Program-made: the position numbers and the translations under genes | Part shown: one piece after another, positions 2,347-60,374 of the stretch | Position numbering within the stretch: the first letter of the stretch is position 1 | Layout of the letters: the number at the start of each line of letters is the position of its first letter | From: an uncultured bacterium | GTDB taxonomy: Bacteria > Patescibacteriota > Minisyncoccia > Moranbacterales > GWC2-37-73 | Assembly (NCBI GenBank): GCA_903861715.1 | Contig: CAIOVI010000019.1 | Span: 5,936 to 69,935 of the forward strand | Direction: 5' to 3' | Length of the DNA: 64,000 nucleotides | Notes under the pieces: generated by a model | What the model was told of the DNA's origin: nothing | What the model saw: the letters and a program-made list of their open reading frames with translations, nothing else | Database searches by the model: none

Positions 2347-2349
2347 ACC

Positions 2350-2376
2350 TACTTCCATATATCCATTTATGGAAGT
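2350..2376. repeat. CCATATAT hairpin element (27-nt copy identical to the one at 14841-14867)
   Basis: tacttccatatatccatttatggaagt forms a 9-bp stem with an 8-nt loop. An identical copy lies upstream of comEC. Confidence 0.6.
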
Positions 2377-8410: not shown

Positions 8411-8734
8411 ATGAGTCAAGAAATGGAATTTACAGATCAAAATTTTGATCAAGAAGTTATCAAAGCAAACGTGCCAGTGTTGGTTGATTTTTGGGCGCCG
8501 TGGTGTGGGCCATGCCAAATGATGGGACCAATCATTAAAGAATTGGCTGAGCAAATGGGAGAGAAAGCCAAAGTTGGGAAACTTAATGTGGATGAAAATG
8601 GTTCTATTGCTTCGCAATATGGCATCATGTCAATTCCAGCGCTGAAAATTTTCAAAGGCGGCAAAGTTGTCAAAGAATACGTTGGCGTGCAAGCTCTCGA
8701 AAATTTAAAGAAAGCGTTGGAGGAGTTGGCGTAA
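8411..8734 (+). CDS. trxA: thioredoxin
   Basis: WCGPC active site with a full thioredoxin fold-length sequence. Confidence 0.9.
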   Translation: MSQEMEFTDQNFDQEVIKANVPVLVDFWAPWCGPCQMMGPIIKELAEQMGEKAKVGKLNVDENGSIASQYGIMSIPALKIFKGGKVVKEYVGVQALENLKKALEELA

Positions 8735-8804
8735 AACATAGAGCATGTAACATAAAACATGTAGCATTAGAAATGCAATATACATTTTTTTAAAAAGCCA
8801 CTTT

Positions 8805-8832
8805 GTAGAAGGTGGCTTTTTGTGGGGCGAAA
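8805..8832 (+). terminator. rho-independent terminator after trxA
   Basis: agccacc / ggtggct stem followed by a T-run. Confidence 0.6.
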
Positions 8833-8857
8833 AAGATGCTATATTTAAGCTACTTGA

Positions 8858-9862
8858 ATGGAAAATGAGAAAATCAGAAAAATAATTCCGTTGCTCATTT
8901 TACTGATTAGTTTAGTGCTGATTGGGTTGTTTTTGGTGGGCAGGAAAACAGCTTCTTTCGAAAATGTTAAGACTGACGTGGTAGTTGAGAAAAAAGCGGT
9001 GGGTATAGCTAAGGCAGTAGCGCTAGCTGAGGTAGCAGGCTCAGTTAAAATTCTTTTTACGGGTGATATTATGCTGGACCGCTATATTAGACAAATTAGC
9101 GAAAAAAGGGGTGGCGGTTTTATTTTTGCTGGCGTCCAAGACCTACTAGTTAAAAATGATTTGGTGGTTAGCAATCTAGAGGGGCCCATTACGGATAATC
9201 CCTCGGTCAGTGTAGGCAGCGAAATCGGCGCCCACGATAACTACATTTTCACTTTCGACCCAATTGTCGCCAGTGAGCTATGGAAAAACAATATCAAGCT
9301 TGTCAATCTTGGCAATAATCATATTTTGAATTTTGGAGCAGACGGGTTGGCGCAGACCAAAGAAAATTTGCGCAGCAATAAAGTTGATTTTTTTGGTGAT
9401 CCGACTGGCGAAAAAAGAATTGCCACTTGGAACAAGAACGGTTTGAAGCTGGCTTTTGTCAATTATAATCAGTTTGAAAAAGATGGCATTGCTAAAGCGC
9501 TTGATAATATCAGTGCTGCCAAGCAATTAAATGTTGACGAAATTATTTTGTATGCGCATTGGGGAACGGAATTTGCAGCTGAGGCTGATGTGAAGCTTAA
9601 AGATTTGGCTCACAGTTTTATTGATGGCGGCGTTGATTTGATCATTGGCAGTCATCCGCACGTAGTGCAAAACAAGGAACAATATCGCGGCAAAATGATT
9701 TATTATTCCCTTGGCAATTTTATTTTTGATCAGTATTTCAGCCCTGAGGCCCAAAAAGGGTTATCCGTTCAAGTTGAAATTGATTCAAGAGATAAAAATT
9801 TTATTTTTATAGAATTTCCAGTTGCTATAAAAGGCAGCGGGCAAACAGTGATAAACTACTGA
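8858..9862 (+). CDS. CapA family protein (poly-gamma-glutamate synthesis-type metallophosphoesterase)
   Basis: N-terminal TM anchor plus typical CapA blocks (GDIMLDRY, NLEGPIT, HWG, GSHPHVVQ). Confidence 0.7.
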   Translation: MENEKIRKIIPLLILLISLVLIGLFLVGRKTASFENVKTDVVVEKKAVGIAKAVALAEVAGSVKILFTGDIMLDRYIRQISEKRGGGFIFAGVQDLLVKNDLVVSNLEGPITDNPSVSVGSEIGAHDNYIFTFDPIVASELWKNNIKLVNLGNNHILNFGADGLAQTKENLRSNKVDFFGDPTGEKRIATWNKNGLKLAFVNYNQFEKDGIAKALDNISAAKQLNVDEIILYAHWGTEFAAEADVKLKDLAHSFIDGGVDLIIGSHPHVVQNKEQYRGKMIYYSLGNFIFDQYFSPEAQKGLSVQVEIDSRDKNFIFIEFPVAIKGSGQTVINY

Positions 9863-10109
9863 TTTTTGGCTTAAATTAGGACAAATTATGAGTTTAAAAT
9901 TGTTCCAAGGGAGGCTTTTTTTGTAAATTTAGCCAAGGTTGGACTTTTTTTGTATTTTATGCAAAGTAAAATGTTCAGAGATTAACTTTTCCTTTGACAG
10001 AGTCGCTCATCTGACTTATGATACTAGCAGGTAAAATCAGCTAAAGAGGGTTATAAATCAGCTCGCTGCGATGAGAGATAATTTTTTGTTAGCTGAAATT
10101 GAAAGCACT

Positions 10110-11195
10110 ATGTTGAAAAAAATCAAAGACAATTTTGCAAAATATCTGGGTGGGCTTTTTAGTAATCTTTCCAATGACATTGGAATTGATTTGGGAACTG
10201 CCAATACGCTTGTCTATGTCAAAGGGAAAGGCATTGTGATCAATGAACCTTCGGTGGTTGCGATTAACAAACGCACCGGACAAGTCTTAGCCATTGGGCG
10301 AGAAGCCAAACGGATGGTTGGCAAAACTCCAGGGCATATTGTGGCCACGCGGCCTTTGGTGGATGGCGTGGTGAGCGATTTCGAAGTGACCACTCAAATG
10401 CTCAGATATTTCATCGAAAAAGTGCACAAAGATTCTTTTTCTTTTTCGCCGCGTCCACGAGTGCTGATTGGCATTCCGTCAGTCATCACGGAAGTTGAAA
10501 AAAAGGCCGTGATTGATGCGGCCATGAATGCTGGTGCACGTGAAGCCTATCTGATTGAGGAACCAATGGCTGCAGCTATTGGCGCGAGACTTCCAGTGAC
10601 GGATGCGCGCGGAAACATGGTGGTTGACATTGGCGGTGGCACTTCCGAAATTGCCGTTATTTCTTTGGGCGGCGTGGTCAGCGCTCGCAGTTTGCGAGTG
10701 GCGGGCGACGAAATGAATGAAGACATCATTCGCTATTGCCGAGATGAATTTAATCTTTTGATTGGCGAAAAAACTTCGGAGGACATTAAAATAGCCGTGG
10801 GTAGTGCCTATGTTTTGAAAGAGCAACTCACCATTGCAATCAGAGGACGAGACTTGGTCAGCGGTCTGCCAAAAGAAGTGATTGTCAATGACAGTCAAAT
10901 CAGAGAAGCAATTTCTCGTTCGATTCGCATTATTGTCAACAATGTGAAAACGGTGATTGAAGAAACTCCGCCAGAACTTTTGTCTGACATCATGCAGCGG
11001 GGAATTATTTTGGCTGGCGGAGGCAGTTTGATCCGAGGTCTGGACAAATTGATTGCCAATCAAACGGAAATGCCAGTTCGCATGATGGAAGATCCGCTCA
11101 CGGCTGTGGTGCGAGGCACTGGCATTGTGCTTGAAGATCTGGAAGTTTTGAAACACGTTTTGGTTGAAGATCAACGCGAGAAATCTTTTAAATAA
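10110..11195 (+). CDS. mreB: rod shape-determining protein MreB
   Basis: GIDLGTANTLVYVKGKGIVINEPSVVA and DIGGGTSE actin-fold motifs. The start was chosen at MLKKIKD. Confidence 0.9.
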   Translation: MLKKIKDNFAKYLGGLFSNLSNDIGIDLGTANTLVYVKGKGIVINEPSVVAINKRTGQVLAIGREAKRMVGKTPGHIVATRPLVDGVVSDFEVTTQMLRYFIEKVHKDSFSFSPRPRVLIGIPSVITEVEKKAVIDAAMNAGAREAYLIEEPMAAAIGARLPVTDARGNMVVDIGGGTSEIAVISLGGVVSARSLRVAGDEMNEDIIRYCRDEFNLLIGEKTSEDIKIAVGSAYVLKEQLTIAIRGRDLVSGLPKEVIVNDSQIREAISRSIRIIVNNVKTVIEETPPELLSDIMQRGIILAGGGSLIRGLDKLIANQTEMPVRMMEDPLTAVVRGTGIVLEDLEVLKHVLVEDQREKSFK

Positions 11196-11204
11196 AAACA
11201 ATAA

Positions 11205-12014
11205 ATGCAAAGATTGACTTCCGTAAAATTATTCAAGGTTGGATTGTTGGCAATTTTTTTTGGATTGCTTATTTTTTTCAATCCGGCTGGATTTTTCAAT
11301 CCATTTAGGAATATTTTTTTGGACGTTGTGCTTCCTTTCAAAAAAATCACCTATACTTTTTCGGCCACTGTCGAAGGGGCGGGTGAATTTTTGGGTTCAA
11401 TCGGACAACTGAAAACCGAAAACGAAAAATTGCTGAGTGAAAATCAAATTTTGTTGGGAGAAAATGCGATGTTGGCGGATCTGAAAAATGAAAATGCTGA
11501 TTTGCGCAGTCAGCTCAATTTGTTGCCAAGAAATCAGTTTAAGCTGCTCCCAACTAATGTTGTTAGTCAGGATTTGAGCGGACCTGGCAATTGGCTGGAA
11601 ATTGACAAAGGCAGTGACGATGGTCTCAGTGAAGGCATGGCGGTGATAATTTCCAAGAGCATTTTGGTTGGGCGAATCGGAGAAGTTGCGCCGAAAAGTT
11701 CCAAAGTAATTTTGCTGACAAACCCCAAAAGCGTTGTCAACGTGGCAACTGTTCAAACTGGAGCCAAGGGAGTGATTAAGGGCGAATATGGGCTGGGCCT
11801 TATTTTTGACATGATTTTGCAAACGGATTCAATTCAAAGTGGGGATGAAATTGTCACCTCGGGCATTGGCGGTCAGCTGCCACGAGGGTTGCTGGTGGGA
11901 ACTGTTCAGAATGTGCATGCCTCTGATGATCATTTGTTTCAGCAAGCCACGGTGGTTTCGCCGCTGCAAATTTCAAAATTGCAATTCGTGTTTGTGGTGG
12001 TTGGAAATAAATGA
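11205..12014 (+). CDS. mreC: rod shape-determining protein MreC
   Basis: N-terminal TM segment, coiled coil and a beta-rich C-terminal domain. Its position after mreB supports the call. Confidence 0.7.
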   Translation: MQRLTSVKLFKVGLLAIFFGLLIFFNPAGFFNPFRNIFLDVVLPFKKITYTFSATVEGAGEFLGSIGQLKTENEKLLSENQILLGENAMLADLKNENADLRSQLNLLPRNQFKLLPTNVVSQDLSGPGNWLEIDKGSDDGLSEGMAVIISKSILVGRIGEVAPKSSKVILLTNPKSVVNVATVQTGAKGVIKGEYGLGLIFDMILQTDSIQSGDEIVTSGIGGQLPRGLLVGTVQNVHASDDHLFQQATVVSPLQISKLQFVFVVVGNK

Positions 12015-12024
12015 TCCAAAAAAT

Positions 12025-12528
12025 ATGCAAAAAAAAATTATCTATAGCGCACTTATTTTACTGGCAATTCTGTTGCAGCTGAGTTTCTTGCCAGCCTTGG
12101 CAGGAAAAAATTTGCCAGGGGATGCAGTCTTGATGCTGGTTTTGGCGATGGCAGTTTTGGATGGTTTTGCGTTGGCCCTGAATTGGGCTATTGTGGCCGG
12201 AATCCTGGTTGATTTTGCCACTTATGGAACTTTGGGTGAGCATGTGATTGTTTTTTTGTTGGTGATTTATGTGGTGAGTTTTTTCTCTCGCAGACTTTCA
12301 GTTGAAGTCAAAGGCACTGGCCGCTTGTTGTTTTTTCTTTTTGTGGCGGCGGCTAGTTTGATTTCAAATGGACTGCTGCTGACTTTTTTGTTTTTGGAAA
12401 ACAAGCTTGTCAAATCGCAGTTGCAATTTTTCAGCAGCAGTAAAGGTTTTTTGCTGCAAATAATTTGTAACACAGTTTTGTTTTTTCTCTGGTATCAGGT
12501 CGTCAAAAAGATTAAGAAAGTGGTATAG
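12025..12528 (+). CDS. mreD: MreD-like membrane protein
   Basis: Small polytopic membrane protein lying between mreC and the PBP2 gene. Confidence 0.45.
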   Translation: MQKKIIYSALILLAILLQLSFLPALAGKNLPGDAVLMLVLAMAVLDGFALALNWAIVAGILVDFATYGTLGEHVIVFLLVIYVVSFFSRRLSVEVKGTGRLLFFLFVAAASLISNGLLLTFLFLENKLVKSQLQFFSSSKGFLLQIICNTVLFFLWYQVVKKIKKVV

Positions 12529-12564
12529 TTAGATGGGAGAGAGCAGTTTATTTTTTCAAATTTT

Positions 12565-14445
12565 ATGAAAACCAAAAGAAACAATTTTAACGCTTACTCC
12601 AGCATGGAGATTGAAGACTATGTTTTGACTGCGACTGAAAAGGAAGCGACCAAGATGGAAAAAGGACTTGAAAAAAAGTGGCTGGACTATTTGTGGTGGG
12701 TCATTGTTTTTTTTGTGCTCAGCTTGGCAGGGCGAGTGATTTTTTTAACGGTCATTAAAGGCGCCTATTATCAAGACATTGCCAAAGGAAATAGCATCCG
12801 ACCGATTGTCATCAAAGCTCCACGAGGCAGAATTTTTGATCGCACTGGCTTGGCCTTGGTCAGCAATATTCCCAGTCTTGATGCGGTGGTTGTGCCAGTT
12901 GATTTGCCGAAAGACCAAACAAAATTAAAAGAGCTTGCTCAAACACTTGCTTCAATTTTGAGTTTGAATCAAGCCCAGGTGCAGACAATTTTGGAAACCA
13001 GCAAAAATGGTTCCTTGGACACAGTTTTACTCAAAGAAAACATTTCGCAAGATGAGTCACTCAACCTTTTGGAAAAATCAAATGTGCTGACTGGGATTTC
13101 CATTGAAAAAACCGCCATCCGAGGTTATTCAGATGCGCAAATCTTTTCTCACCTGATGGGCTATGAAGGAAAAATCCAGCAGAAGGAATTGGATAATGAC
13201 AAAAGTTATCGCTTGACTGATTATATCGGCAAGCAAGGAATTGAAAAATCATATGAAAGCAGTTTGCGAGGAGTTAATGGCGCTGATCAAATTGAAGTTG
13301 ATTCAATGGGCAATGCTCAAAGAGAGGTGGGAATCATCAATCCGAAGCCTGGTAGTGATTTGGTGCTCAATATTGACGCTGGACTTCAGAAAAAAATTTA
13401 TGATAGTATCGGTGCTGTGTTGGAAAAAACTGGTGCCAAGACAGCAGCCGCAGTGGTGATTGATCCGAAAACTGGTGGAGTGTTAGCCATGGTAAACGTG
13501 CCAAGTTATGACAACAATCTGTTTGCTCAAAAAATCTCAGCGGATGATTATGCCAAATTCATCGCCGATCCAAGCAAGCCACTTTTCAATCGGGCAATTG
13601 CTGGAGAATATCCACCAGGCTCAACCATCAAACCTGCAATTGCAGCCGCCGCCCTTTCGGAAGGCACCATCACTCCCACAACTATTATTGATGGCTTGGG
13701 CGGAACGCTCAGAGTTGGCGGTTTTAGTTTCGGGGACTGGAAAGCGCATGGCCCTAGTGATGTGCGCACAGCAATTGCCCAAAGTAATGACATCTTTTTT
13801 TACACAGTTGGAGGTGGCTACGGAAATATTCAAGGCTTGGGCATGGACAGAATGAAAAAATATGACAACCTTTTTGGCTTTGGCGAAAAAACGGGCATTG
13901 ACATTGGAGGCGAATCTGCAGGCTTCATTCCAAGTGAACAATGGAAGCAAGACACTTTAGGAGAAAAATGGTTCATTGGCAATAGCTATCATGCAGCCAT
14001 TGGCCAAGGTTATGTGACAGCCACACCGCTGCAATTGGCAAACTATGTCGCAGCTATCGCCAATGGCGGAACCTTGTACAAACCGCACTTGGTTGCACAA
14101 ATCAAAAAAAGTGATGGCGGGGTGCAAACCATCAAGCCCGAGATAATCCGGAGCAATTTCATTGATCCGGCGGTTTTGAAAGTGGTGCAAGAAGGAATGC
14201 GCAAAACCATCACGGATGGCACGGCTCAAGTTTTGAAAACAATGCCAATTGAAATTGCCGGCAAAACCGGCACCGCCCAATTTGGCACCGCTGGTCAAAC
14301 GCACGGTTGGTTCATTTGCTATGCGCCCTTTGACGATCCCAAAATTGCGATGGCAGTTTTGGTGGAAGGCGGCGGGGAAGGCAATTCCAGCGCCTTGCCA
14401 GTCACCCAAGAAGCCTTGAAATGGTATTTTGGTGGCAGACAATAA
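12565..14445 (+). CDS. mrdA: penicillin-binding protein 2 (peptidoglycan D,D-transpeptidase)
   Basis: Dimerisation domain plus transpeptidase domain (STIKP, SND, KTGT motifs). Located in the mreBCD cluster. Confidence 0.85.
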   Translation: MKTKRNNFNAYSSMEIEDYVLTATEKEATKMEKGLEKKWLDYLWWVIVFFVLSLAGRVIFLTVIKGAYYQDIAKGNSIRPIVIKAPRGRIFDRTGLALVSNIPSLDAVVVPVDLPKDQTKLKELAQTLASILSLNQAQVQTILETSKNGSLDTVLLKENISQDESLNLLEKSNVLTGISIEKTAIRGYSDAQIFSHLMGYEGKIQQKELDNDKSYRLTDYIGKQGIEKSYESSLRGVNGADQIEVDSMGNAQREVGIINPKPGSDLVLNIDAGLQKKIYDSIGAVLEKTGAKTAAAVVIDPKTGGVLAMVNVPSYDNNLFAQKISADDYAKFIADPSKPLFNRAIAGEYPPGSTIKPAIAAAALSEGTITPTTIIDGLGGTLRVGGFSFGDWKAHGPSDVRTAIAQSNDIFFYTVGGGYGNIQGLGMDRMKKYDNLFGFGEKTGIDIGGESAGFIPSEQWKQDTLGEKWFIGNSYHAAIGQGYVTATPLQLANYVAAIANGGTLYKPHLVAQIKKSDGGVQTIKPEIIRSNFIDPAVLKVVQEGMRKTITDGTAQVLKTMPIEIAGKTGTAQFGTAGQTHGWFICYAPFDDPKIAMAVLVEGGGEGNSSALPVTQEALKWYFGGRQ

Positions 14446-14518: not shown

Positions 14519-14676
14519 GGTGAAGTGAACGTCTGGCTAGGGCGGACTGAACAGCCTGGCCGCCTTTGAAGGAAGCGACGATAACAAAAGGTTTTTTGCC
14601 TCACCGATTTTATCGGTGTGAGTCTGAAGGGCACAGGGCCTGCCTACCGGTAGGCAGGCTTGCTCTGGGGTATTAA
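14519..14676. repeat. structured repeat element A (copy 1), containing the 22-bp perfect palindrome gcctgcctaccggtaggcaggc
   Basis: About 105 nt are shared with the inverted copy at 30287-30400. Copy 1 carries an extra insert of about 45 nt at 14530-14575. Confidence 0.7.
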
Positions 14677-14757: not shown

Positions 14758-14771
14758 TGAAAAATTTTTTT

Positions 14772-14798
14772 ACACCCATATATTAATTTATAGGTGTG
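14772..14798. repeat. CCATATAT hairpin element (variant)
   Basis: acacccatatattaatttataggtgtg. Confidence 0.5.
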
Positions 14799-14840
14799 AA
14801 GGGAAATTAAAATTGCGAGAAAATTTTTGCAAAATATTTT

Positions 14841-14867
14841 TACTTCCATATATCCATTTATGGAAGT
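14841..14867. repeat. CCATATAT hairpin element (identical to 2350-2376)
   Basis: tacttccatatatccatttatggaagt. Confidence 0.6.
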
Positions 14868-14924: not shown

Positions 14925-16388
14925 ATGACCAAGTCAAAAATACTTTTGTTTTTGCTTTTGAGTTTCATTGGGGCGGTTTTTGTCAGGTCATTTTTTGAAA
15001 TTTCTCAAATTGAAATTTTTCTGCTGCTAATGTTGGCCTTGATAACACTATTCACATTTTACAAAAACAAAATGGCGACACTGGTCGCTTTTTTGTTGCT
15101 CTCTTTCGTATTTGGGTTGTGGAAAACTGACAGCAAAATATCACAGGCCAGCAATTTAACATTTTTGGGAAAAAATTTTCAAGAGCAAGCTGTTGTGCAA
15201 AAAGTGAGCCCTTCGACTTTCGGGCAGAATATTATTGTTGATTTTCAAAACGAGAAAATTTCGGTCCTGCTGCAAGTTCCGCAATATCCGGAATATAAAT
15301 ATGGAGATTTGTTGGAAATAACTTGCACTGTCAAGGCGATTGAAAATTTATCTGCCGGAGAGGCAGGCAAAGATGATAGTTTTGACTATCACATGTATAT
15401 GGCCAAAGAAGGCGTGCTGTATCAATGTGAAAAAAGTAAAATTAAAAAAGTTGGAGAAAACGGTGGCAGTTTTCTTTTGGGAAAAATAATTGCCATGCGC
15501 AGGATTTTTGAAAACAAAATCAATCAGGTGCTGCCTCAGCCAGAAGGCGCTTTGGCTATTGGACTTTTGCTGGGTGGCAGTGGTGGACTTTCCAAGGAAA
15601 TCCAAAGTGATTTTTCGCGCACTGGCATGACGCACATCGTGGCAGTTTCGGGATATAATGTGACGATCATTGCGGAATATCTAATTTTGCTTGGCATTGC
15701 CTTGGGGCTTTGGCGCAAGCAGGCAATTTGGTTTGCGATTGTGGGAATTGCTTTGTTTGTGATCATGAGCGGCTTGCCAGCTTCGGCAGTGCGAGCTGGG
15801 GTGATGAGCGGCATTTTGCTTTGGGCGATGAAAAATGGAAGGCTTTCTTCTTGTGAAAATGCCATCATTTTTGCAGGGGCGATAATGCTATTTCTCAATC
15901 CTTTGCTGCTCCGATGGGATGTGGGATTTCAACTTTCTTTTTTGGCGACTTTGGGCATTGTGCTGACTTCGGATTTTTGGGAAAAGAGTTTTGTGAAGCA
16001 GCACAAAGCCCTGGGAATTTCAGAAGCAATCACTTTGTCGCTGAGCGCTCAAATTTTTGTGTTGCCAATCATTGCCTACAACTTTCATTTGACTTCACTC
16101 ATTTCACTTCTGGCTAACGTTTTTATTTTGCCAGTGATTCCACTCTCAATGCTCTTGGTTTTTTTGGTGATGGTTTTTGGTTTGCTTTGGACGCCGCTTT
16201 CCTTGGTTTTCGCTTGGCTGGCTTTCGTGCTGCTGGCCTATGAAATAAAACTGATTCATCTTTTAGCCGAGTTTCCCTGGGCCAGTGTCGGTGTTGAAAA
16301 AGTCAACGTGTGGTGGATTGCGATTTACTATATAATATTAATAAGAATAATTTTTTGGATAAAAAGTCGAGAAAATTTAGAAGTATGA
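14925..16388 (+). CDS. comEC: ComEC/Rec2 competence protein (DUF4131 plus competence domain; no fused MBL domain)
   Basis: Polytopic membrane protein with the competence-domain block LAIGLLLGGSGGLSKEIQSDFSRTGMTHIVAVSGYNVTII. Confidence 0.8.
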   Translation: MTKSKILLFLLLSFIGAVFVRSFFEISQIEIFLLLMLALITLFTFYKNKMATLVAFLLLSFVFGLWKTDSKISQASNLTFLGKNFQEQAVVQKVSPSTFGQNIIVDFQNEKISVLLQVPQYPEYKYGDLLEITCTVKAIENLSAGEAGKDDSFDYHMYMAKEGVLYQCEKSKIKKVGENGGSFLLGKIIAMRRIFENKINQVLPQPEGALAIGLLLGGSGGLSKEIQSDFSRTGMTHIVAVSGYNVTIIAEYLILLGIALGLWRKQAIWFAIVGIALFVIMSGLPASAVRAGVMSGILLWAMKNGRLSSCENAIIFAGAIMLFLNPLLLRWDVGFQLSFLATLGIVLTSDFWEKSFVKQHKALGISEAITLSLSAQIFVLPIIAYNFHLTSLISLLANVFILPVIPLSMLLVFLVMVFGLLWTPLSLVFAWLAFVLLAYEIKLIHLLAEFPWASVGVEKVNVWWIAIYYIILIRIIFWIKSRENLEV

Positions 16389-16614
16389 TTTTTGAAATAG
16401 TATTTTGTATTTTGCATTTTCCTCTCCGCACATTGCGCAGTGCGTAGGTAAAAGACGAGTGATGAGCGTTAAGAAATTTTGAAACGCAGTGAGGTCAGTA
16501 GGCCGAACGGAGTGTAAATTTTAGCGAAGAGTGAAGTCTTTGCCCCAGCAACAAGCACGTGTCGGGATTTCTTTTGTAACTTTTCTATTAAAAGAAAAGT
16601 TAACCTCTGTAATG

Positions 16615-16650
16615 CTGGATTGCTTCGGATGATTACATCCTCGCAAAGAC
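16615..16650. repeat. family-2 palindromic element, right-arm half copy
   Basis: ctggattgcttcggatgattacatcctcgcaaagac matches the right arms of the full copies at 17627-17718 and 18444-18537. Confidence 0.55.
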
Positions 16651-16687
16651 AAAGCAAGGCTTAATTATTAGTTATCATACATCCCTT

Positions 16688-17566
16688 ATGCTTCATCGCA
16701 AAATATTTTTTCCCATCCTGGGTGGTCTGATTGCGCTCATTGTCATCTTGAGCGTTATCGTTTTTCATGGTCAAAATAACGCTCTGAGCGTGGTGTTTTT
16801 GGATGTTGGCCAAGGCGATGCGATTTTGATTTCGCAAGGCAGTCAACAAGTGTTGATTGATGGTGGCAAGGATGGAAAATTGTTGTTGGAAAAACTGGGA
16901 AAATATATTCCCTTTTGGGATCGTAAATTGGAAACCATAATTGAAACGCATCCCGATCAAGATCACATCGGAGGCTTGGTTGACGTTTTGAGAACTTATG
17001 AGGTTGGTAGTGTGCTGGAAACCAAAATGCAAAACAATTCGCAGACTTTCAAAAAATTGGAAGAAACTGTCGATCAATTGGCAAGTCAGCACAAACTTGA
17101 AAAAATTGAAGCCAAAAAAAACGTGGTCATCAAGTTTTCCAACGGCGCAATTTTGCAAATTTTATATCCTTTGGAATCTGTGACAGACACTAACTCCAAT
17201 GACACTAATCTGGCCAGCGTGGTGGCAAAATTGACAGTTGGGGACAGCCGCTTTCTTTTTACGGGTGATTTTCCAACTTTGCAAGATAGTTCATTGCTCG
17301 GCAGCGGCGAAGATGTGAGTGCGAACTTTTTGAAAGTTGCGCATCACGGTTCCAAATATGCCACCAGCAATGAGTTTCTTGAAAAAGTAAAACCAACCGA
17401 AGCGATTATTTCAGTCGGAAAAAACAATTCTTATGGTCATCCAAGTCCAGAAGTTTTGCAAAGACTTTTGCAACATAAAGTGAAAATTTTGCGCACCGAT
17501 GAAAGCGGGGATGTTGAATATGAATGTCAGAATTTAAATAGTAAATGTTTTTTGAAATCATTTTAA
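16688..17566 (+). CDS. ComEC-type metallo-beta-lactamase fold hydrolase (stand-alone, with N-terminal TM anchor)
   Basis: VVFLDVGQGDAILI and HPDQDHIGG motifs typical of the ComEC C-terminal MBL domain. Confidence 0.75.
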   Translation: MLHRKIFFPILGGLIALIVILSVIVFHGQNNALSVVFLDVGQGDAILISQGSQQVLIDGGKDGKLLLEKLGKYIPFWDRKLETIIETHPDQDHIGGLVDVLRTYEVGSVLETKMQNNSQTFKKLEETVDQLASQHKLEKIEAKKNVVIKFSNGAILQILYPLESVTDTNSNDTNLASVVAKLTVGDSRFLFTGDFPTLQDSSLLGSGEDVSANFLKVAHHGSKYATSNEFLEKVKPTEAIISVGKNNSYGHPSPEVLQRLLQHKVKILRTDESGDVEYECQNLNSKCFLKSF

Positions 17567-17626
17567 GGTTGCAATTTTTCGTATTTTTGCATTTTTGAGT
17601 CCACTTCGCAGTGTATTCTAATTTTT

Positions 17627-17718
17627 GTCATCGCGAGGATTTTGTAATCAAAATCCGTGGCGATCCAGAGCCTTGCAACGCCCTGGATTGCTTCGGAGGA
17701 TTACCTCCTCGCAAAGAC
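17627..17718. repeat. family-2 palindromic element of about 92 nt (full copy)
   Basis: gtcatcgcgaggattttgtaatcaaaatccgtggcgatccag, then a loop, then ctggattgcttcggaggattacctcctcgcaaagac. The arms are reverse complements and contain nested hairpins. Confidence 0.6.
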
Positions 17719-17835
17719 GGATGAGGATTGATTGTCTTTTTGCAAACGAAACTTGCTTTATCTCAAACTTTTGCTAGACTATAAATATCTAGCAAGCTTA
17801 TCGCTTTTTAATTTAATTATAAATAACCAAAAATT

Positions 17836-18438
17836 ATGGCGCACCCAAGCAAAGAAAGAACGTTTGTCATCCTCAAGCCGGATGCAATTCAACGAAATTT
17901 TATTGGTGAAATCATTTCTCGTTTTGAAAAAACCGGGCTCAAAATCACCGCGATGCGATTGCTGGTGCCAAAGGCCGAGCAATGCTGGACACACTATAAT
18001 AAGGACGAGGCTTGGTTTCTGAAAAAAGGTGAAGGAATTGTGAAAGCTCGTCAGGAAAATAATATGCCAGTGGAAAAAGAGGCGATTGAATATGGTCGCG
18101 ATATTATTGGCCAATTGGTGACTTTTATGACCTCCGGTCCAGTTTTGGCCATGGTGATTGAAGGCAATCAAGCGGTTGGCATTGTGACTAAATTGGTTGG
18201 GGGAACTGAACCGCTGACTTCTGACATCGGCACCATTCGCGGAGATTTGACTTTGGATTCCTATGACCTGGCTGGCATTGATGGTCGCGCCGTGCGAAAT
18301 TTGATTCACTGCTCTGACAAGCCCGAAGAGGCTGAACGCGAAATCAAAATTTGGTTTACTGAAGAAGAAATCATCAGCTATCGTTCCATTTCAGAGCAAA
18401 TGCTTTATGATGTGAACCTGGATGGAATTTTAGAATAA
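17836..18438 (+). CDS. ndk: nucleoside diphosphate kinase (long form with insertion)
   Basis: ERTFVILKPDAIQR and the NLIHCSD active-site His motif. Confidence 0.85.
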   Translation: MAHPSKERTFVILKPDAIQRNFIGEIISRFEKTGLKITAMRLLVPKAEQCWTHYNKDEAWFLKKGEGIVKARQENNMPVEKEAIEYGRDIIGQLVTFMTSGPVLAMVIEGNQAVGIVTKLVGGTEPLTSDIGTIRGDLTLDSYDLAGIDGRAVRNLIHCSDKPEEAEREIKIWFTEEEIISYRSISEQMLYDVNLDGILE

Positions 18439-18443
18439 ATAAA

Positions 18444-18537
18444 GTCATTGCGAGGATGTAATCATCCGTGGCAATCCAGAATGTTGCCAGGCCCTGGATC
18501 GCCACGTATTTCCGAGTACAGAAATACTCGCGAAGAC
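18444..18537. repeat. family-2 palindromic element of about 94 nt (full copy)
   Basis: gtcattgcgaggatgtaatcatccgtggcaatccag ... ctggatcgccacg ... ctcgcgaagac. It begins 6 nt after the ndk stop. Confidence 0.6.
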
Positions 18538-18624
18538 GCGTAGCTATCTAGAATACACAAAAATCGACCATCGTGGTCGGTTTTTTGTTTTGCTTTTTTT
18601 CCTCAAGCTTGATATTCTGGAGAT

Positions 18625-19812
18625 ATGAAAAACTTTCTGAAAAAAATATTCATTGTCATTCTGGAACTGGCTTTCATCGCGGGCGTGCTTTGGTATATTG
18701 CGGAAAAAAGAGGCATTCACAGTTTGCAACAAGTTGCGCCGACCTTGGGAAGTCGATTTGAAAAAATGGTGCAAGCGCCTTTTCCTGCCTTGGAACAACC
18801 AGTTACAAAAACTTTTCAGTGGAAATACAAAAATGTCCAATATGAATTGCCGTTGACGCTTTATCAATCGGTCTATGTCTATTATCAAAAGCAACCCAAA
18901 ATTTTTTCCTACACCGGTGACTTGCCGGCCAACTGGGAAGAAAGCTATTATGGCATGTTTTTGAAAGCCAACGACAATGATTCGACCATTGCCAATCTTG
19001 CCAGTGGTTTGCAACAATTGGGCACCCAGCATCGCTTGAGCAGTGACCAAGTCGTGGAACTTGCCTTGGCTTTTGTGCAGTCCATCACCTATGATGACAC
19101 AAAAGCTAGCAACATTTTGGCCAAAGCTGACAATGAAACCATGCTCTATCCATACGAAACACTTTTTGAACAAAAGGGTGTTTGCAGTGACAAGAGTTTG
19201 TTGGCAGTTTCAATTTTGAGAAAGCTGGGCTATGGTGTGGCAATTTTTGCTTATGAGCAAGACAACCATATGGCCATCGGGGTGCAATGTCCTCAAAATT
19301 ATTCGACCTACAATAGCGGTTATTGCTTTGGCGAAACCACTAGCGTCGGCAACAAAATTGGCCTTATTCCGCAATTTAACACTCAAAGTCAGAAAACTGC
19401 CGATCTTGCCGAACTTCCAACTTTTGATCAGGCGCAGCAACAAATCAAAAATTTGCAAGACCTTGGGCAAATGACAATTTATCAAATTACTCCTGGCAAA
19501 GAATATACGGGCATCATTGAAACGAAAAGAATTGAAACTGAGTTAACCAAGCTGAAAACCGATTTGAAAAATTTGATGGCGAAATTGGAAGCGCAGAAAA
19601 AAGTTGTTTCGGGAGAGGTTGCTGATTTGAAGAAGCAAAAAGACAACCTGGATAGTTGGAAAAATGAGCAAAACTTTGAAAAATATAACGCTGCGGTGGA
19701 GGATTATAACTCGCTGTTGGAAAAATACAAGCAAGACGTGAAAAGTTACAATAATTCGATCCCGCTTTACAATCAGACGGTGGCGAGGTATAACGAGTTA
19801 ATCAAGCAGTGA
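18625..19812 (+). CDS. membrane-anchored transglutaminase-like (Cys-His-Asp) protein with C-terminal coiled coil
   Basis: GVCSDKSLLAVSILRKLGY fits the transglutaminase-like catalytic Cys context, and NHMAIGV supplies the His. The C-terminal 100 aa are coiled-coil and Lys/Glu-rich. Confidence 0.45.
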   Translation: MKNFLKKIFIVILELAFIAGVLWYIAEKRGIHSLQQVAPTLGSRFEKMVQAPFPALEQPVTKTFQWKYKNVQYELPLTLYQSVYVYYQKQPKIFSYTGDLPANWEESYYGMFLKANDNDSTIANLASGLQQLGTQHRLSSDQVVELALAFVQSITYDDTKASNILAKADNETMLYPYETLFEQKGVCSDKSLLAVSILRKLGYGVAIFAYEQDNHMAIGVQCPQNYSTYNSGYCFGETTSVGNKIGLIPQFNTQSQKTADLAELPTFDQAQQQIKNLQDLGQMTIYQITPGKEYTGIIETKRIETELTKLKTDLKNLMAKLEAQKKVVSGEVADLKKQKDNLDSWKNEQNFEKYNAAVEDYNSLLEKYKQDVKSYNNSIPLYNQTVARYNELIKQ

Positions 19813-30286: not shown

Positions 30287-30400
30287 GTATTAATACCCCA
30301 GGGCAAGCCTGCCTACCGGTAGGCAGGCCCTGGACCCTTCGGGCTCACATCGATAAAATTGGTGAGGTATCAATCTTTTGTTATCGTCGCTCACTTCGCT
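30287..30400. repeat. structured repeat element A (copy 2, inverted relative to copy 1)
   Basis: Its reverse complement matches 14572-14676, including the 22-bp palindrome. It starts 5 nt after the stop of the upstream gene. Confidence 0.7.
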
Positions 30401-60333: not shown

Positions 60334-60374
60334 CCTGCCTACCTGCCTATCGGCAGACAGGCCGGCAGGCAGGC
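60334..60374. repeat. GC-rich hairpin related to the element-A palindrome (cctgcctacctgcc ... ggcaggcaggc)
   Basis: Shares the gcctgcctacc motif with 14638-14659 and 30307-30328. Confidence 0.4.

What the first reader, a model, noticed from the sequence alone, without database searches (positions are those of the whole stretch)
16389..18540. Second palindromic element family (about 90 nt, nested hairpins) in each gap around comEC-MBL and ndk, with ComEC split into two genes
Full copies at 17627-17718 and 18444-18537 and a half copy at 16615-16650 share the arms gtcatYgcgagga..tccgtggcRatccag and ctggatYgc..tcctcgcRaagac. These form one long imperfect palindrome with internal sub-hairpins. Copy 3 begins 6 nt after the ndk stop. 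The ComEC competence channel (14925-16388) lacks its usual C-terminal metallo-beta-lactamase domain, which is instead encoded by a separate gene (16688-17566) with its own TM anchor. The repeat-bearing gap between the two genes is 299 bp. Either insertion of the element split an ancestral comEC, or the elements act as terminators or processing sites within a comEC-MBL-ndk transcription unit.
Basis: partly seen in the sequence, partly recalled or inferred. Interest (0 to 1): 0.55.

Follow-up and report, generated by a model that had tools for sequence, protein, structure and literature searches.

The report
CGTC-type REP palindromes beside split ComEC
The repeats are real and are a variant of a known family of small bacterial palindromes (CGTC-tagged REPs), here in a Candidatus Moranbacteria genome; they settled in gaps that already existed and did not split the DNA-uptake gene comEC, and the comEC gap also holds a second, apparently undescribed structured repeat.

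Summary
There are two ~92-nt palindromes (17627-17718, 18444-18537) and one half unit (16615-16650), found nowhere else in the 64 kb. Each palindrome is an inverted pair of 36-44 nt stem-loop units: (C/T)GTC tag, ATYGC/GCRAT outer stem, GA/GWR internal loop, variable inner hairpin, CCAG tail. Tag, tail, dimer layout and intergenic position match the CGTC-tagged REP superfamily (Di Nocera 2013). The stem architecture differs from what that paper describes for its four families. The same unit turns up across Proteobacteria, Bacteroidales, Spirochaetes, Melainabacteria, Verrucomicrobia and Patescibacteria.

ComEC really is split: the two genes match consecutive parts of one ComEC/Rec2 model. The split is ancestral. 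All 120 best homologues of each half stand alone, two relatives share a repeat-free spacer, and in the closest relative the two genes overlap by 14 nt. The insertion-split idea is refuted.

The elements are not terminators. A canonical terminator follows copy 3, and the order ndk, dimer, terminator is conserved in three species.

Most of the 299-bp gap is a different ~205-nt element ("B"). It is multicopy, has a rod-like fold supported by covariation, and has no Rfam match. The half copy is the tail of a B+REP composite.

The parts
14925..16388 (+). comEC channel half (DUF4131/OB fold plus Competence transmembrane domain), 487 aa
   Evidence: Pfam PF03772 at 2e-53 and PF13567. It aligns to TIGR00361 model positions 77-410 of 663. 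The 120 best homologues are 378-528 aa and none has an MBL domain.
16400..16604 (+). Element B: heptamer repeats (GTATTTT GTATTTT GCATTTT, 16400-16420), a rod-like stem-loop of about 140 nt (16424-16566) with a conserved purine-rich internal loop GAGTGATGAG / AAGAGTGAA, and a 3' hairpin (16576-16604)
   Evidence: It is 93-96% identical to L126:2368-2545 at a different locus. 44 metagenome stretches carry its 20-specified-base core, several per contig. On 28 copies, 97.3% of cells pair, 14 of 35 pairs show compensatory changes, and 0 of 500 shuffles reach the observed values. No Rfam match.
16615..16650 (-). Single CGTC-type REP unit (the 'half copy'); on the minus strand it reads tGTCTTTGCGAGGATGTAATCATCCGAAGCAATCCAG. 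It is the 3' module of the B+REP composite.
   Evidence: A matching or degraded unit follows the B 3' hairpin within about 6-12 nt in L136, L149 and L131. In L136 it lies in the same ComEC-MBL gap.
16688..17566 (+). comEC MBL (nuclease-domain) half with its own N-terminal membrane anchor, 292 aa
   Evidence: Pfam Lactamase_B. It aligns to TIGR00361 model positions 422-663. It carries HPDQDH and AHHGS motifs and a hydrophobic N-terminus. The 120 best homologues are stand-alone proteins of 233-310 aa.
17627..17718 (.). REP inverted dimer, copy 1: left unit 17627-17668 (+), 14-nt spacer 17669-17682, right unit 17683-17718 (-)
   Evidence: Fold -46.3 kcal/mol, z -5.5. No intact unit in the MBL-ndk gap of L126 or L143. 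Present in five same-species contigs, four of which carry 2 SNPs.
17836..18438 (+). ndk (nucleoside diphosphate kinase), 200 aa
   Evidence: Pfam PF00334 at 4e-40.
18444..18537 (.). It lies in the ndk 3' region upstream of the terminator.
   Evidence: Fold z -4.8 and -7.0. Orthologous dimers sit after the ndk stop in L126 and L143; their inner hairpins differ in sequence but mostly still pair.
18559..18592 (+). Canonical intrinsic terminator of ndk (12-pair stem plus T-tract)
   Evidence: Conserved in L126 and L143 downstream of the REP dimer.

Best explanation
The 'second palindromic family' is a local set of CGTC-tagged REP elements. These are small, non-coding, non-autonomous palindromic repeats. 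Each 36-44 nt unit folds on its own: a (C/T)GTC tag, a 5-bp outer stem ATYGC/GCRAT, a GA / G(A/T)(A/G) internal loop, an inner hairpin of free sequence, and a CCAG tail. Two units in inverted order with the tags outward make each ~92-nt palindrome. The third site is a single unit that arrived as the tail of a larger mosaic, element B plus one REP unit.

These elements colonised intergenic gaps at gene 3' ends that already existed. ComEC had been split into a channel gene and a membrane-anchored MBL gene long before, in the common ancestor of the sampled Moranbacteria relatives.

Shown: what the elements are, their architecture, their wide distribution, gain and loss between relatives, and that the split came first.

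Inferred: they spread through single-stranded hairpin DNA, handled by an enzyme supplied in trans and not yet identified. Where they persist, as after ndk, they are transcribed as stable stem-loops upstream of the real terminator. There they are tolerated or mildly useful as barriers to 3'-to-5' exonucleases. They do not act as terminators.
For: Unit anatomy and recurrence.

Pairing within a unit: the Y and R positions of the outer stem covary in all 5 window units. Across 101 distinct units from many taxa the counts are TA 82, CG 11, CA 6, TG 2 (Fisher p = 5e-9). Inner segments fold better than shuffles (mean -5.2 against -2.0 kcal/mol; 58 of 71 better).

Family: the published definition of CGTC REPs is tag CGTC or TGTC, stem starting AT, tail CCA, predominantly dimers, mostly intergenic and downstream of ORFs, and no dedicated transposase (PMC3733652). 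Its supplement lists dimers with the tags outward.

Hits span Alpha-, Beta- and Gammaproteobacteria, Bacteroidales, Melainabacteria, Spirochaetaceae, Chitinispirillales, Opitutaceae and Patescibacteria. 41 of them are tag-outward dimers. About 507 kb of Moranbacteria-type DNA holds 14 ATTCCC-stem units, mostly canonical CGTC-1, and 11 units of this type.

The split came first.

Gain and loss: the ComEC-MBL gap is repeat-free in L126 and L127. It holds a CGTC-1 dimer in L128, another palindrome in L130, and B+REP in the window and L136. In L129 there is no gap.

Retention: the order ndk, dimer, terminator is orthologous in three species.
Against: Two published family features are not met. The stem is not a continuous 8-9 bp with a 4-5 nt loop. 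In three of five units the first stem pair is T.T, not A-T.

I could not see Figure 2 of the 2013 paper, so I cannot show that this unit type is absent from its catalogue.

No transposase or other mobilising enzyme is known or was found, so the spreading mechanism is inference.

There are no transcript data, so the RNA role is inference. Conservation after ndk could reflect slow decay or gene conversion rather than function.

The number of copies in the whole genome is unknown.
Confidence: 0.7

Rival explanations
1. Insertion of the palindromic element broke an ancestral fused comEC into two genes.
For: The two genes correspond to contiguous parts of one ComEC/Rec2 model. The window has 314 nt where the closest relative has 7 nt.
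Against: All 120 best homologues of each half are stand-alone. L126 and L127 have the same split with a visibly similar, repeat-free spacer. In L129 the two ORFs overlap by 14 nt in different frames, so removing the insert does not restore a fused gene. Other lineages carry different elements in the same gap.
Confidence: 0.03
2. The elements are Rho-independent terminators, or attenuators, within or at the end of a comEC-MBL-ndk operon.
For: They form strong GC-rich hairpins placed just after stop codons. REPs in general have been proposed to act as terminators (PMC3733652).
Against: No T-tract follows any unit. The terminator scan does not call them, and it finds a canonical terminator about 20 nt after copy 3. 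That terminator is conserved together with the dimer in three species, so the dimer is not doing the terminator's job.
Confidence: 0.07
3. The elements are selected cis-acting RNA structures, not selfish DNA. They would stabilise the upstream mRNA segment or direct processing, and so set the relative levels of ComEC, MBL and Ndk.
For: They sit downstream of ORFs. The ndk dimer is kept at the same place in three species, with inner stems that changed sequence but mostly still pair. Pairing within units is maintained across phyla. This overlaps with the best explanation.
Against: Copy 1 and the gap-1 unit are missing from most relatives, so they are not needed for this operon. Copy number varies and other repeat families substitute in the same gap. 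The dimers are symmetric, so strand-specific selection cannot be shown.
Confidence: 0.3
4. The elements work at the DNA level. They could be target or attachment sites for site-specific recombinases, or binding sites for nucleoid or gyrase-type proteins, as proposed for some REPs, BIMEs and Neisseria dRS3.
For: The flank sequences (GTCATTGCGAG...GCAATCCAG) are nearly invariant across phyla while the inner hairpin is free, which looks like a protein recognition site. Other small elements nest inside or beside them: a CGTC-2-like unit lies inside the L126 dimer, and REP dimers lie inside B copies. From my own knowledge, not tested here: dRS3 (= CGTC-1) is a prophage and IS110-family target in Neisseria, and IS621 and IS1111 target REPs.
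Against: No recombinase or IS sits next to any copy examined. There is no direct evidence here.
Confidence: 0.2

Closest known systems
CGTC-tagged REP superfamily (Di Nocera, De Gregorio and Rocco 2013, BMC Genomics 14:522; families CGTC-1 to CGTC-4; includes Neisseria dRS3 and Rickettsia RPE-4 and RPE-6)
   Same: An unpaired 5' tag CGTC or TGTC, a stem that opens with AT, an unpaired CCA(G) tail, inverted dimers with tags outward, a position between genes and downstream of ORFs, no transposase next to them, and several types living together in one genome. Canonical CGTC-1 units (tGTCATTCCCGTGAAAACGGGAATCCAG) occur in the same Moranbacteria-type contigs.
   Different: The paper describes continuous stems of 8-9 bp and loops of 4-5 nt. 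Here the unit has a 5-bp outer stem, a purine internal loop and a variable inner hairpin, and is 36-44 nt long (28-55 nt across taxa). Three of five units start TT, not AT. The paper lists five phyla and Patescibacteria is not among them. I could not see its Figure 2, so I cannot exclude that this unit type was filed under CGTC-1 variants.
GTAG REPs, BIMEs and REPINs mobilised by RAYT (Y1/HUH) transposases
   Same: Short imperfect palindromes with an unpaired terminal tetranucleotide. They form inverted doublets with a short spacer that can fold as one long hairpin or as two, and they lie in 3' intergenic regions.
   Different: The tag is CGTC or TGTC, not GTAG. The literature reports no RAYT association for CGTC elements, and none could be tested here.
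Neisseria intergenic mosaic elements (NIMEs: repeat segments bounded by dRS3 = CGTC-1 units)
   Same: CGTC-type units combine with other repeat modules into mosaics in intergenic DNA. Here these are B+REP composites and B copies that enclose a REP dimer.
   Different: The partner module (element B) is a long, covariation-supported stem-loop specific to Moranbacteria-type genomes. Arrays here are short, with one or two modules.
ComEC proteins with the DUF4131 + Competence ('DC') domain profile (Pimentel and Zhang 2018, PMC6299819)
   Same: The channel gene has the DC profile. That paper reports repeated gains and losses of the Lactamase_B domain across bacteria.
   Different: Here the MBL domain is not lost. 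It is encoded by the next gene, with its own membrane anchor, and matches the C-terminal third of the ComEC/Rec2 model. The words 'split', 'separate' and 'adjacent' do not occur in that paper.

Membership tests
CGTC-tagged REP superfamily | Unpaired 5' terminal tag CGTC (accepted variants TGTC, CCTC) | tested here: met
   The tags are cGTC (two units), tGTC (two units) and aGTC (one unit). Four of five fit and one is a new variant.
CGTC-tagged REP superfamily | Stem opens with complementary A-T pairs at the first and second positions | tested here: inconclusive
   The two left units read AT...AT. The two right units and the singleton read TT...AT, so their first pair is T.T.
CGTC-tagged REP superfamily | Short unpaired 3' tail fitting CCA | tested here: met
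   All five units end in CCAG.
CGTC-tagged REP superfamily | Continuous stem of 8-9 bp and loop of 4-5 nt (families 1-4) | tested here: not met
   The outer stem is 5 bp, followed by a GA/GWR internal loop and an inner stem of 5-8 bp with a 4-8 nt loop. So this is filed as a variant of the superfamily and not as a member of CGTC-1 to CGTC-4.
CGTC-tagged REP superfamily | Predominantly inverted dimers; intergenic, downstream of ORFs | tested here: met
   The window has two tag-outward dimers and one singleton, all intergenic and after stop codons. There are 41 such dimers in other taxa.
CGTC-tagged REP superfamily | No dedicated transposase flanked by the repeats | not testable with these tools
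   Only 64 kb of the genome is available. The genes next to the copies are comEC, the MBL gene, ndk and a DUF553 gene.
RAYT-associated GTAG REP / REPIN | GTAG tetranucleotide at the 5' foot of the hairpin | tested here: not met
   The feet read (C/T/A)GTC.
RAYT-associated GTAG REP / REPIN | A RAYT gene in the genome, flanked by the same REPs | not testable with these tools
Intrinsic (Rho-independent) terminator | GC-rich hairpin followed directly by a U-tract | tested here: not met
   No T-run follows any unit. The scan calls only 18559-18585, downstream of copy 3.
MITE (terminal inverted repeats plus target-site duplication) | Direct target-site duplication flanking the element | tested here: not met
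   The flanks of both dimers and the singleton share no direct repeat. Flanks in 41 dimers from other taxa extend the palindrome by C...G in many cases and do not form direct repeats.
ComEC/Rec2 (NCBIfam TIGR00361, three-domain single polypeptide) | One protein covering the OB fold, the channel and the MBL domain | tested here: not met
   Two ORFs cover model positions 77-410 and 422-663. Each scores below the equivalog cut-off (89.5 and 137.3 bits against 190).
Any Rfam 15 family (for element B and for the REP dimers) | Covariance-model match | tested here: not met
   There was no match at gathering score in the window. Nothing relevant appeared at E up to 10 in 16300-18700, or at E up to 5 in six other loci that carry B.

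The most novel reading that the evidence does not exclude
Element B (window 16400-16604) is an undescribed family of structured elements in Moranbacteria-type CPR genomes, acting as an RNA or as one strand of DNA. It is a rod of about 150 nt with an invariant purine-rich internal loop (GAGUGAUGAG / AAGAGUGAA, which looks box C/D-like or K-turn-like), a swappable apical hairpin, and many G.U pairs that exist on one strand only. It is dispersed at the 3' ends of unrelated housekeeping genes and is physically coupled to CGTC REP units: some copies have a REP unit as a 3' module, others have a REP dimer in place of the apex. If B and the REP units share one handling enzyme, small CPR genomes could be the place to find the long-missing enzyme that acts on CGTC REPs.
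Probability: 0.35. Interest if true: 0.6.

Novelty: new variant of a known kind. Interest (0 to 1): 0.35.

Why it matters
For the finding as stated, the result is mostly clarifying. The palindromes belong to a repeat superfamily already described, and the attractive idea that a mobile element split comEC is wrong.

Three points have some value. First, CGTC-type REPs, whose means of spreading is still unknown, occur in very small CPR genomes. This unit type keeps almost identical flanks from Bradyrhizobium to Patescibacteria while its inner hairpin varies freely. That pattern argues for recognition by something widely conserved, and a CPR genome offers only a short list of candidate genes.

Second, a ComEC scored as lacking its MBL domain may in some lineages be a gene fission with the nuclease half encoded next door. 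This affects how competence potential is read from CPR genomes.

Third, the comEC gap led to a multicopy element with covariation support and no Rfam counterpart.

Tried and rejected
1. Rfam at gathering and at permissive thresholds found nothing for the dimers or for B.

2. tRNA or tmRNA: none in the window.

3. Literature search by sequence string (GTCATTGCGAG, GCGAAGCAATCC and others) returned only unrelated papers, mostly primer-type matches. 'Patescibacteria' plus 'repetitive extragenic palindromic' returned one irrelevant paper.

4. I first read GTCTTTGC at 16538 as a decayed left arm of a full copy ending at 16650. Rejected: it is the 3' strand of B's main helix, conserved in all B copies.

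5. I tested whether the MBL-ndk gap is a degenerate 'B enclosing a REP dimer' mosaic. Only a 19-nt GTATTTTTGCATTTT motif is shared on the left (10 of 2000 shuffles score as high). The right side is not significant (721 of 2000). Rejected.

6. Hammerhead reading of B's UGAUGAG...CGAAG core. Rejected by hand: position C3 is G and A15.1 is G, and there is no Rfam hit.

7. A partner gene for B (TnpB, IscB or a transposase). Ten adjacent ORFs are unrelated housekeeping genes: Ferric_reduct, TsaE, MFS, NYN, Obg, NrdD, Dus, cation efflux, a GT4 glycosyltransferase, and one with no match.

8. B in viral contigs: none.

9. The equal length of the L126 MBL-ndk gap (177 nt) and the window gap minus copy 1 (also 177 nt) looked like a clean empty site, but by eye the sequences do not look alignable, so I treat it as coincidence.

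Full report
**Observation**

The region reads as described. Copy 1 (17627-17718) and copy 2 (18444-18537) share both arms. The 36-nt piece at 16615-16650 is 94% identical to the right arm of copy 1 and 90% complementary to the left arm of copy 2. The arm motifs are enriched over dinucleotide shuffles: 8 hits against 1.7 expected, and 6 against 1.3. A whole-unit search with mismatches finds only these five units in the 64 kb.

Both full copies fold much better than shuffles on either strand (z from -4.8 to -7.0). Copy 1 folds as one long hairpin. Copy 2 folds as an outer stem enclosing three sub-hairpins. The elements are 51-52% G+C in a window of 39.7%. The organism is a Candidatus Moranbacteria (Patescibacteria/CPR) lake MAG, to judge from source names of homologues and the contigs that carry identical genes.

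**Anatomy**

Each full copy is an inverted pair of units. A unit reads (C/T)GTC, then [A/T]TYGC, GA, an inner hairpin, G(A/T)(A/G), GCRAT, and CCAG. The tags face outward and a 14-nt spacer separates the two units.

The five inner hairpins differ in sequence but all pair: GGATTTTG/CAAAATCC, GGAGG/CCTCC, GGATG/CATCC (twice) and GTATTTC/GAAATAC. The Y and R positions of the outer stem covary within a unit in 5 of 5 cases. Pairing between the two arms would put C.A or T.G at that position. So the unit, not the whole palindrome, is the conserved folding module.

This holds across taxa. In 101 distinct units the Y/R combinations are TA 82, CG 11, CA 6 and TG 2 (Fisher p = 5e-9). Inner segments fold better than shuffles in 58 of 71 cases.

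**What family it is**

One scan of species-representative genomes with the unit pattern hit the 120-stretch limit. The hits include Bradyrhizobium, Sphingomonas, Methylobacterium, Rickettsiales, Legionella, Coxiellaceae, Neisseriaceae, Bacteroidales, Melainabacteria, Spirochaetaceae, Chitinispirillales, Opitutaceae and Patescibacteria. The commonest form is GTCATTGCGAGCGAAGCGAAGCAATCCAG. Forty-one hits are tag-outward dimers with spacers of 1-34 nt, often built from two unequal units.

This matches the CGTC-tagged REP superfamily of Di Nocera et al. 2013 (PMC3733652). That paper defines the superfamily by:
- an unpaired CGTC or TGTC tag;
- a stem that starts AT;
- a CCA tail;
- predominantly dimers;
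- a position mostly intergenic and downstream of ORFs;
- no dedicated transposase.

It reports the superfamily from five phyla, mainly Alphaproteobacteria. Its supplementary peptides let me reconstruct the unit types: CGTC-1 (GTCATTCCCGC...), CGTC-2 (..ATYCTGAAC..), CGTC-3 (..ATCGCCGGG..) and CGTC-4 (..ATTCCGTGG..). The ATTGCGAG...GCAAT unit is not among those peptides. It also breaks the published rule of a continuous 8-9 bp stem and a 4-5 nt loop. I therefore file it as a variant of the superfamily. One caveat: Figure 2 of the paper is not in the held text.

Canonical CGTC-1 units occur in the same Moranbacteria-type contigs. About 507 kb holds 14 ATTCCC-stem units (mostly canonical CGTC-1) and 11 units of this type.

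**ComEC**

Against NCBIfam TIGR00361 (ComEC/Rec2, 663 positions), the first protein covers positions 77-410 and the second covers 422-663. The second carries HPDQDH and AHHGS motifs and an N-terminal hydrophobic anchor.

The split is old:
- All 120 best homologues of the channel half (down to 50% identity) have no MBL domain.
- All 120 best homologues of the MBL half (down to 53% identity) are stand-alone.
- Relatives at 85, 78, 72 and 68% ComEC identity, whose loci I read, keep separate ComEC and MBL genes followed by ndk.
- L126 and L127 share a visibly similar AT-rich spacer of 101-113 nt with no repeat.
- In the closest relative, L129 (96%), the two ORFs overlap by 14 nt. The window has 314 nt where L129 has 7 nt.

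The same gap holds a CGTC-1 dimer in L128 and a CCTGCC...GGCAGG palindrome in L130. The gap is a landing pad for small elements. It was not created by one.

Published work describes DUF4131 + Competence ComEC proteins and repeated gains and losses of the MBL domain. The words 'split', 'separate' and 'adjacent' do not occur in that paper.

**What fills the 299-bp gap**

About 205 nt (16400-16604) are not REP at all. This 'element B' is 93-96% identical to a sequence at a different locus in L126, after a ferric-reductase-like gene. It also resembles a sequence in the gap of a split nrdD in L128.

A scan of metagenome contigs with its 20-specified-base core found 44 stretches, with at least three copies on each of three contigs of 173-232 kb. 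Viral contigs gave none.

On 28 copies the consensus fold is a rod with seven helices. In it, 97.3% of cells pair, against 33-50% when partners are slid. Fourteen of 35 pairs show compensatory changes, and 0 of 500 shuffles reach any observed measure. Many pairs are G.U on this strand, one of them invariant, and these would be A.C on the other strand. The structure therefore belongs to one strand, the strand of comEC in the window.

Other features of B:
- an invariant internal loop, GAGUGAUGAG / AAGAGUGAA;
- apical hairpins that differ between subfamilies, often with a CAGCAG loop;
- a 3' hairpin;
- 5' heptamer repeats (GTATTTT, GCATYCC).

Ten ORFs next to other B copies are unrelated housekeeping genes. 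B lies mostly at gene 3' ends: the upstream neighbour is co-oriented 20 to 12 by my tally, and the downstream neighbour is convergent 28 to 9. There is no Rfam match.

**Link between B and the REP units**

Four copies of the window's B subfamily (window, L136, L149 and L131, out of about 15 by my count) carry a REP unit, intact or degraded, about 6-12 nt after the 3' hairpin. The intact ones have near-identical inner hairpins. The 'half copy' is therefore the tail of a B+REP composite. L136 (78% ComEC identity) has this composite in the same ComEC-MBL gap.

Other B copies (L132, L150, L173 twice) carry a REP dimer, one arm a canonical CGTC-1 unit, in place of the apex and the 3' loop strand. 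This mosaic behaviour recalls Neisseria NIMEs, where dRS3 (= CGTC-1) bounds other repeat segments.

**Function**

The elements are not terminators. They have no U-tract, and a canonical terminator follows copy 3. The order ndk stop, dimer, terminator is orthologous in the window, L126 and L143. The unit flanks and the terminator are conserved, the spacer has diverged, and the inner stems have changed but mostly still pair. In L126 the right arm is interrupted by a nested CGTC-2-like unit. Copy 1 has no intact counterpart in the MBL-ndk gap of L126 or L143, so it is not required for this gene cluster.

I conclude that these are selfish or near-neutral palindromic repeats that settle at gene 3' ends. 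Their most plausible effect is as transcribed stem-loops that slow 3'-to-5' decay of the upstream message. That role has been proposed for REPs in general and shown for E. coli REPs (my knowledge). How they spread is not known. A single-strand hairpin route through an enzyme supplied in trans is inference.

**Verdict**

The insertion-split and terminator readings are rejected, and an RNA role stays open. The family is a variant of a known kind, in a phylum where the 2013 paper did not list it and one literature search found no report. Element B is the most novel item and deserves its own follow-up.

Noticed in passing
window 16400-16604; also L126:2340-2560, L128:160-400, L131-L174: Element B is a structured repeat of about 205 nt with covariation support. 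It has a conserved purine internal loop, swappable apex modules and 5' heptamer repeats, is multicopy in Moranbacteria-type contigs, and has no Rfam match. It fills most of the ComEC-MBL gap.
   Followed up: partly
window 14640-14657, 30309-30326, 60343-60360; L130:7597-7640; inside B copies in L136, L150, L151: A third small palindrome family, CTGCCTRCCGGYAGGCAG, has 3 sites in the window against 0.13 hits expected. It also occupies the ComEC-MBL gap of L130 and is nested inside some B copies.
   Followed up: partly
window 2347-2372, 14768-14793, 14838-14863: A fourth hairpin family, TTTTACWYCCATATAT..ATTTATGG, has 3 copies against 0 expected. Two of them lie in tandem in the 479-bp gap upstream of comEC.
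   Followed up: no
L127:1-815 and L128:1-815; L174:6445-8700: The anaerobic ribonucleotide reductase NrdD is also split in relatives: a ~750-aa main gene plus an 88-aa NRDD-domain ORF. The gap is 75 nt in L127 and about 410 nt, containing element B, in L128. This is a second case of an existing gene split that was later filled by a repeat.
   Followed up: partly
L129:7457-7470 and 8572-13470: In the closest relative (96% ComEC identity) comEC and the MBL gene overlap by 14 nt. ndk is replaced downstream by an ORF of more than 1678 aa with no Pfam hit on record, which points to a recent local rearrangement.
   Followed up: no
L126:8254-8375: The right arm of the orthologous ndk dimer in L126 is interrupted by a nested CGTC-2-like unit (GTCATCCTGAAC...TTCAGGATC) with a large loop. 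REP units can insert into one another.
   Followed up: partly
L006-L125 (for example L010, L028, L081): In proteobacterial copies the unit core contains overlapping GCGAAGC heptamers. From my own knowledge this is an unusually stable DNA mini-hairpin motif, which hints at a single-stranded DNA stage. In L081 the flanks extend the palindrome by 11 nt.
   Followed up: no
L126:7440-7520 and 10555-10610: Runs of AGTAATCAGTAA / TTACTGATTAC-type short repeats appear in two intergenic regions of L126. This may be yet another repeat family in this lineage.
   Followed up: no
window 17662 and 17674 (copy 1, element positions 36 and 48), compared with L002-L005: Four same-species contigs carry two SNPs in copy 1. 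One of them (G to A) breaks the Y/R pair of the left unit. Copy 2 is identical in all five contigs.
   Followed up: yes
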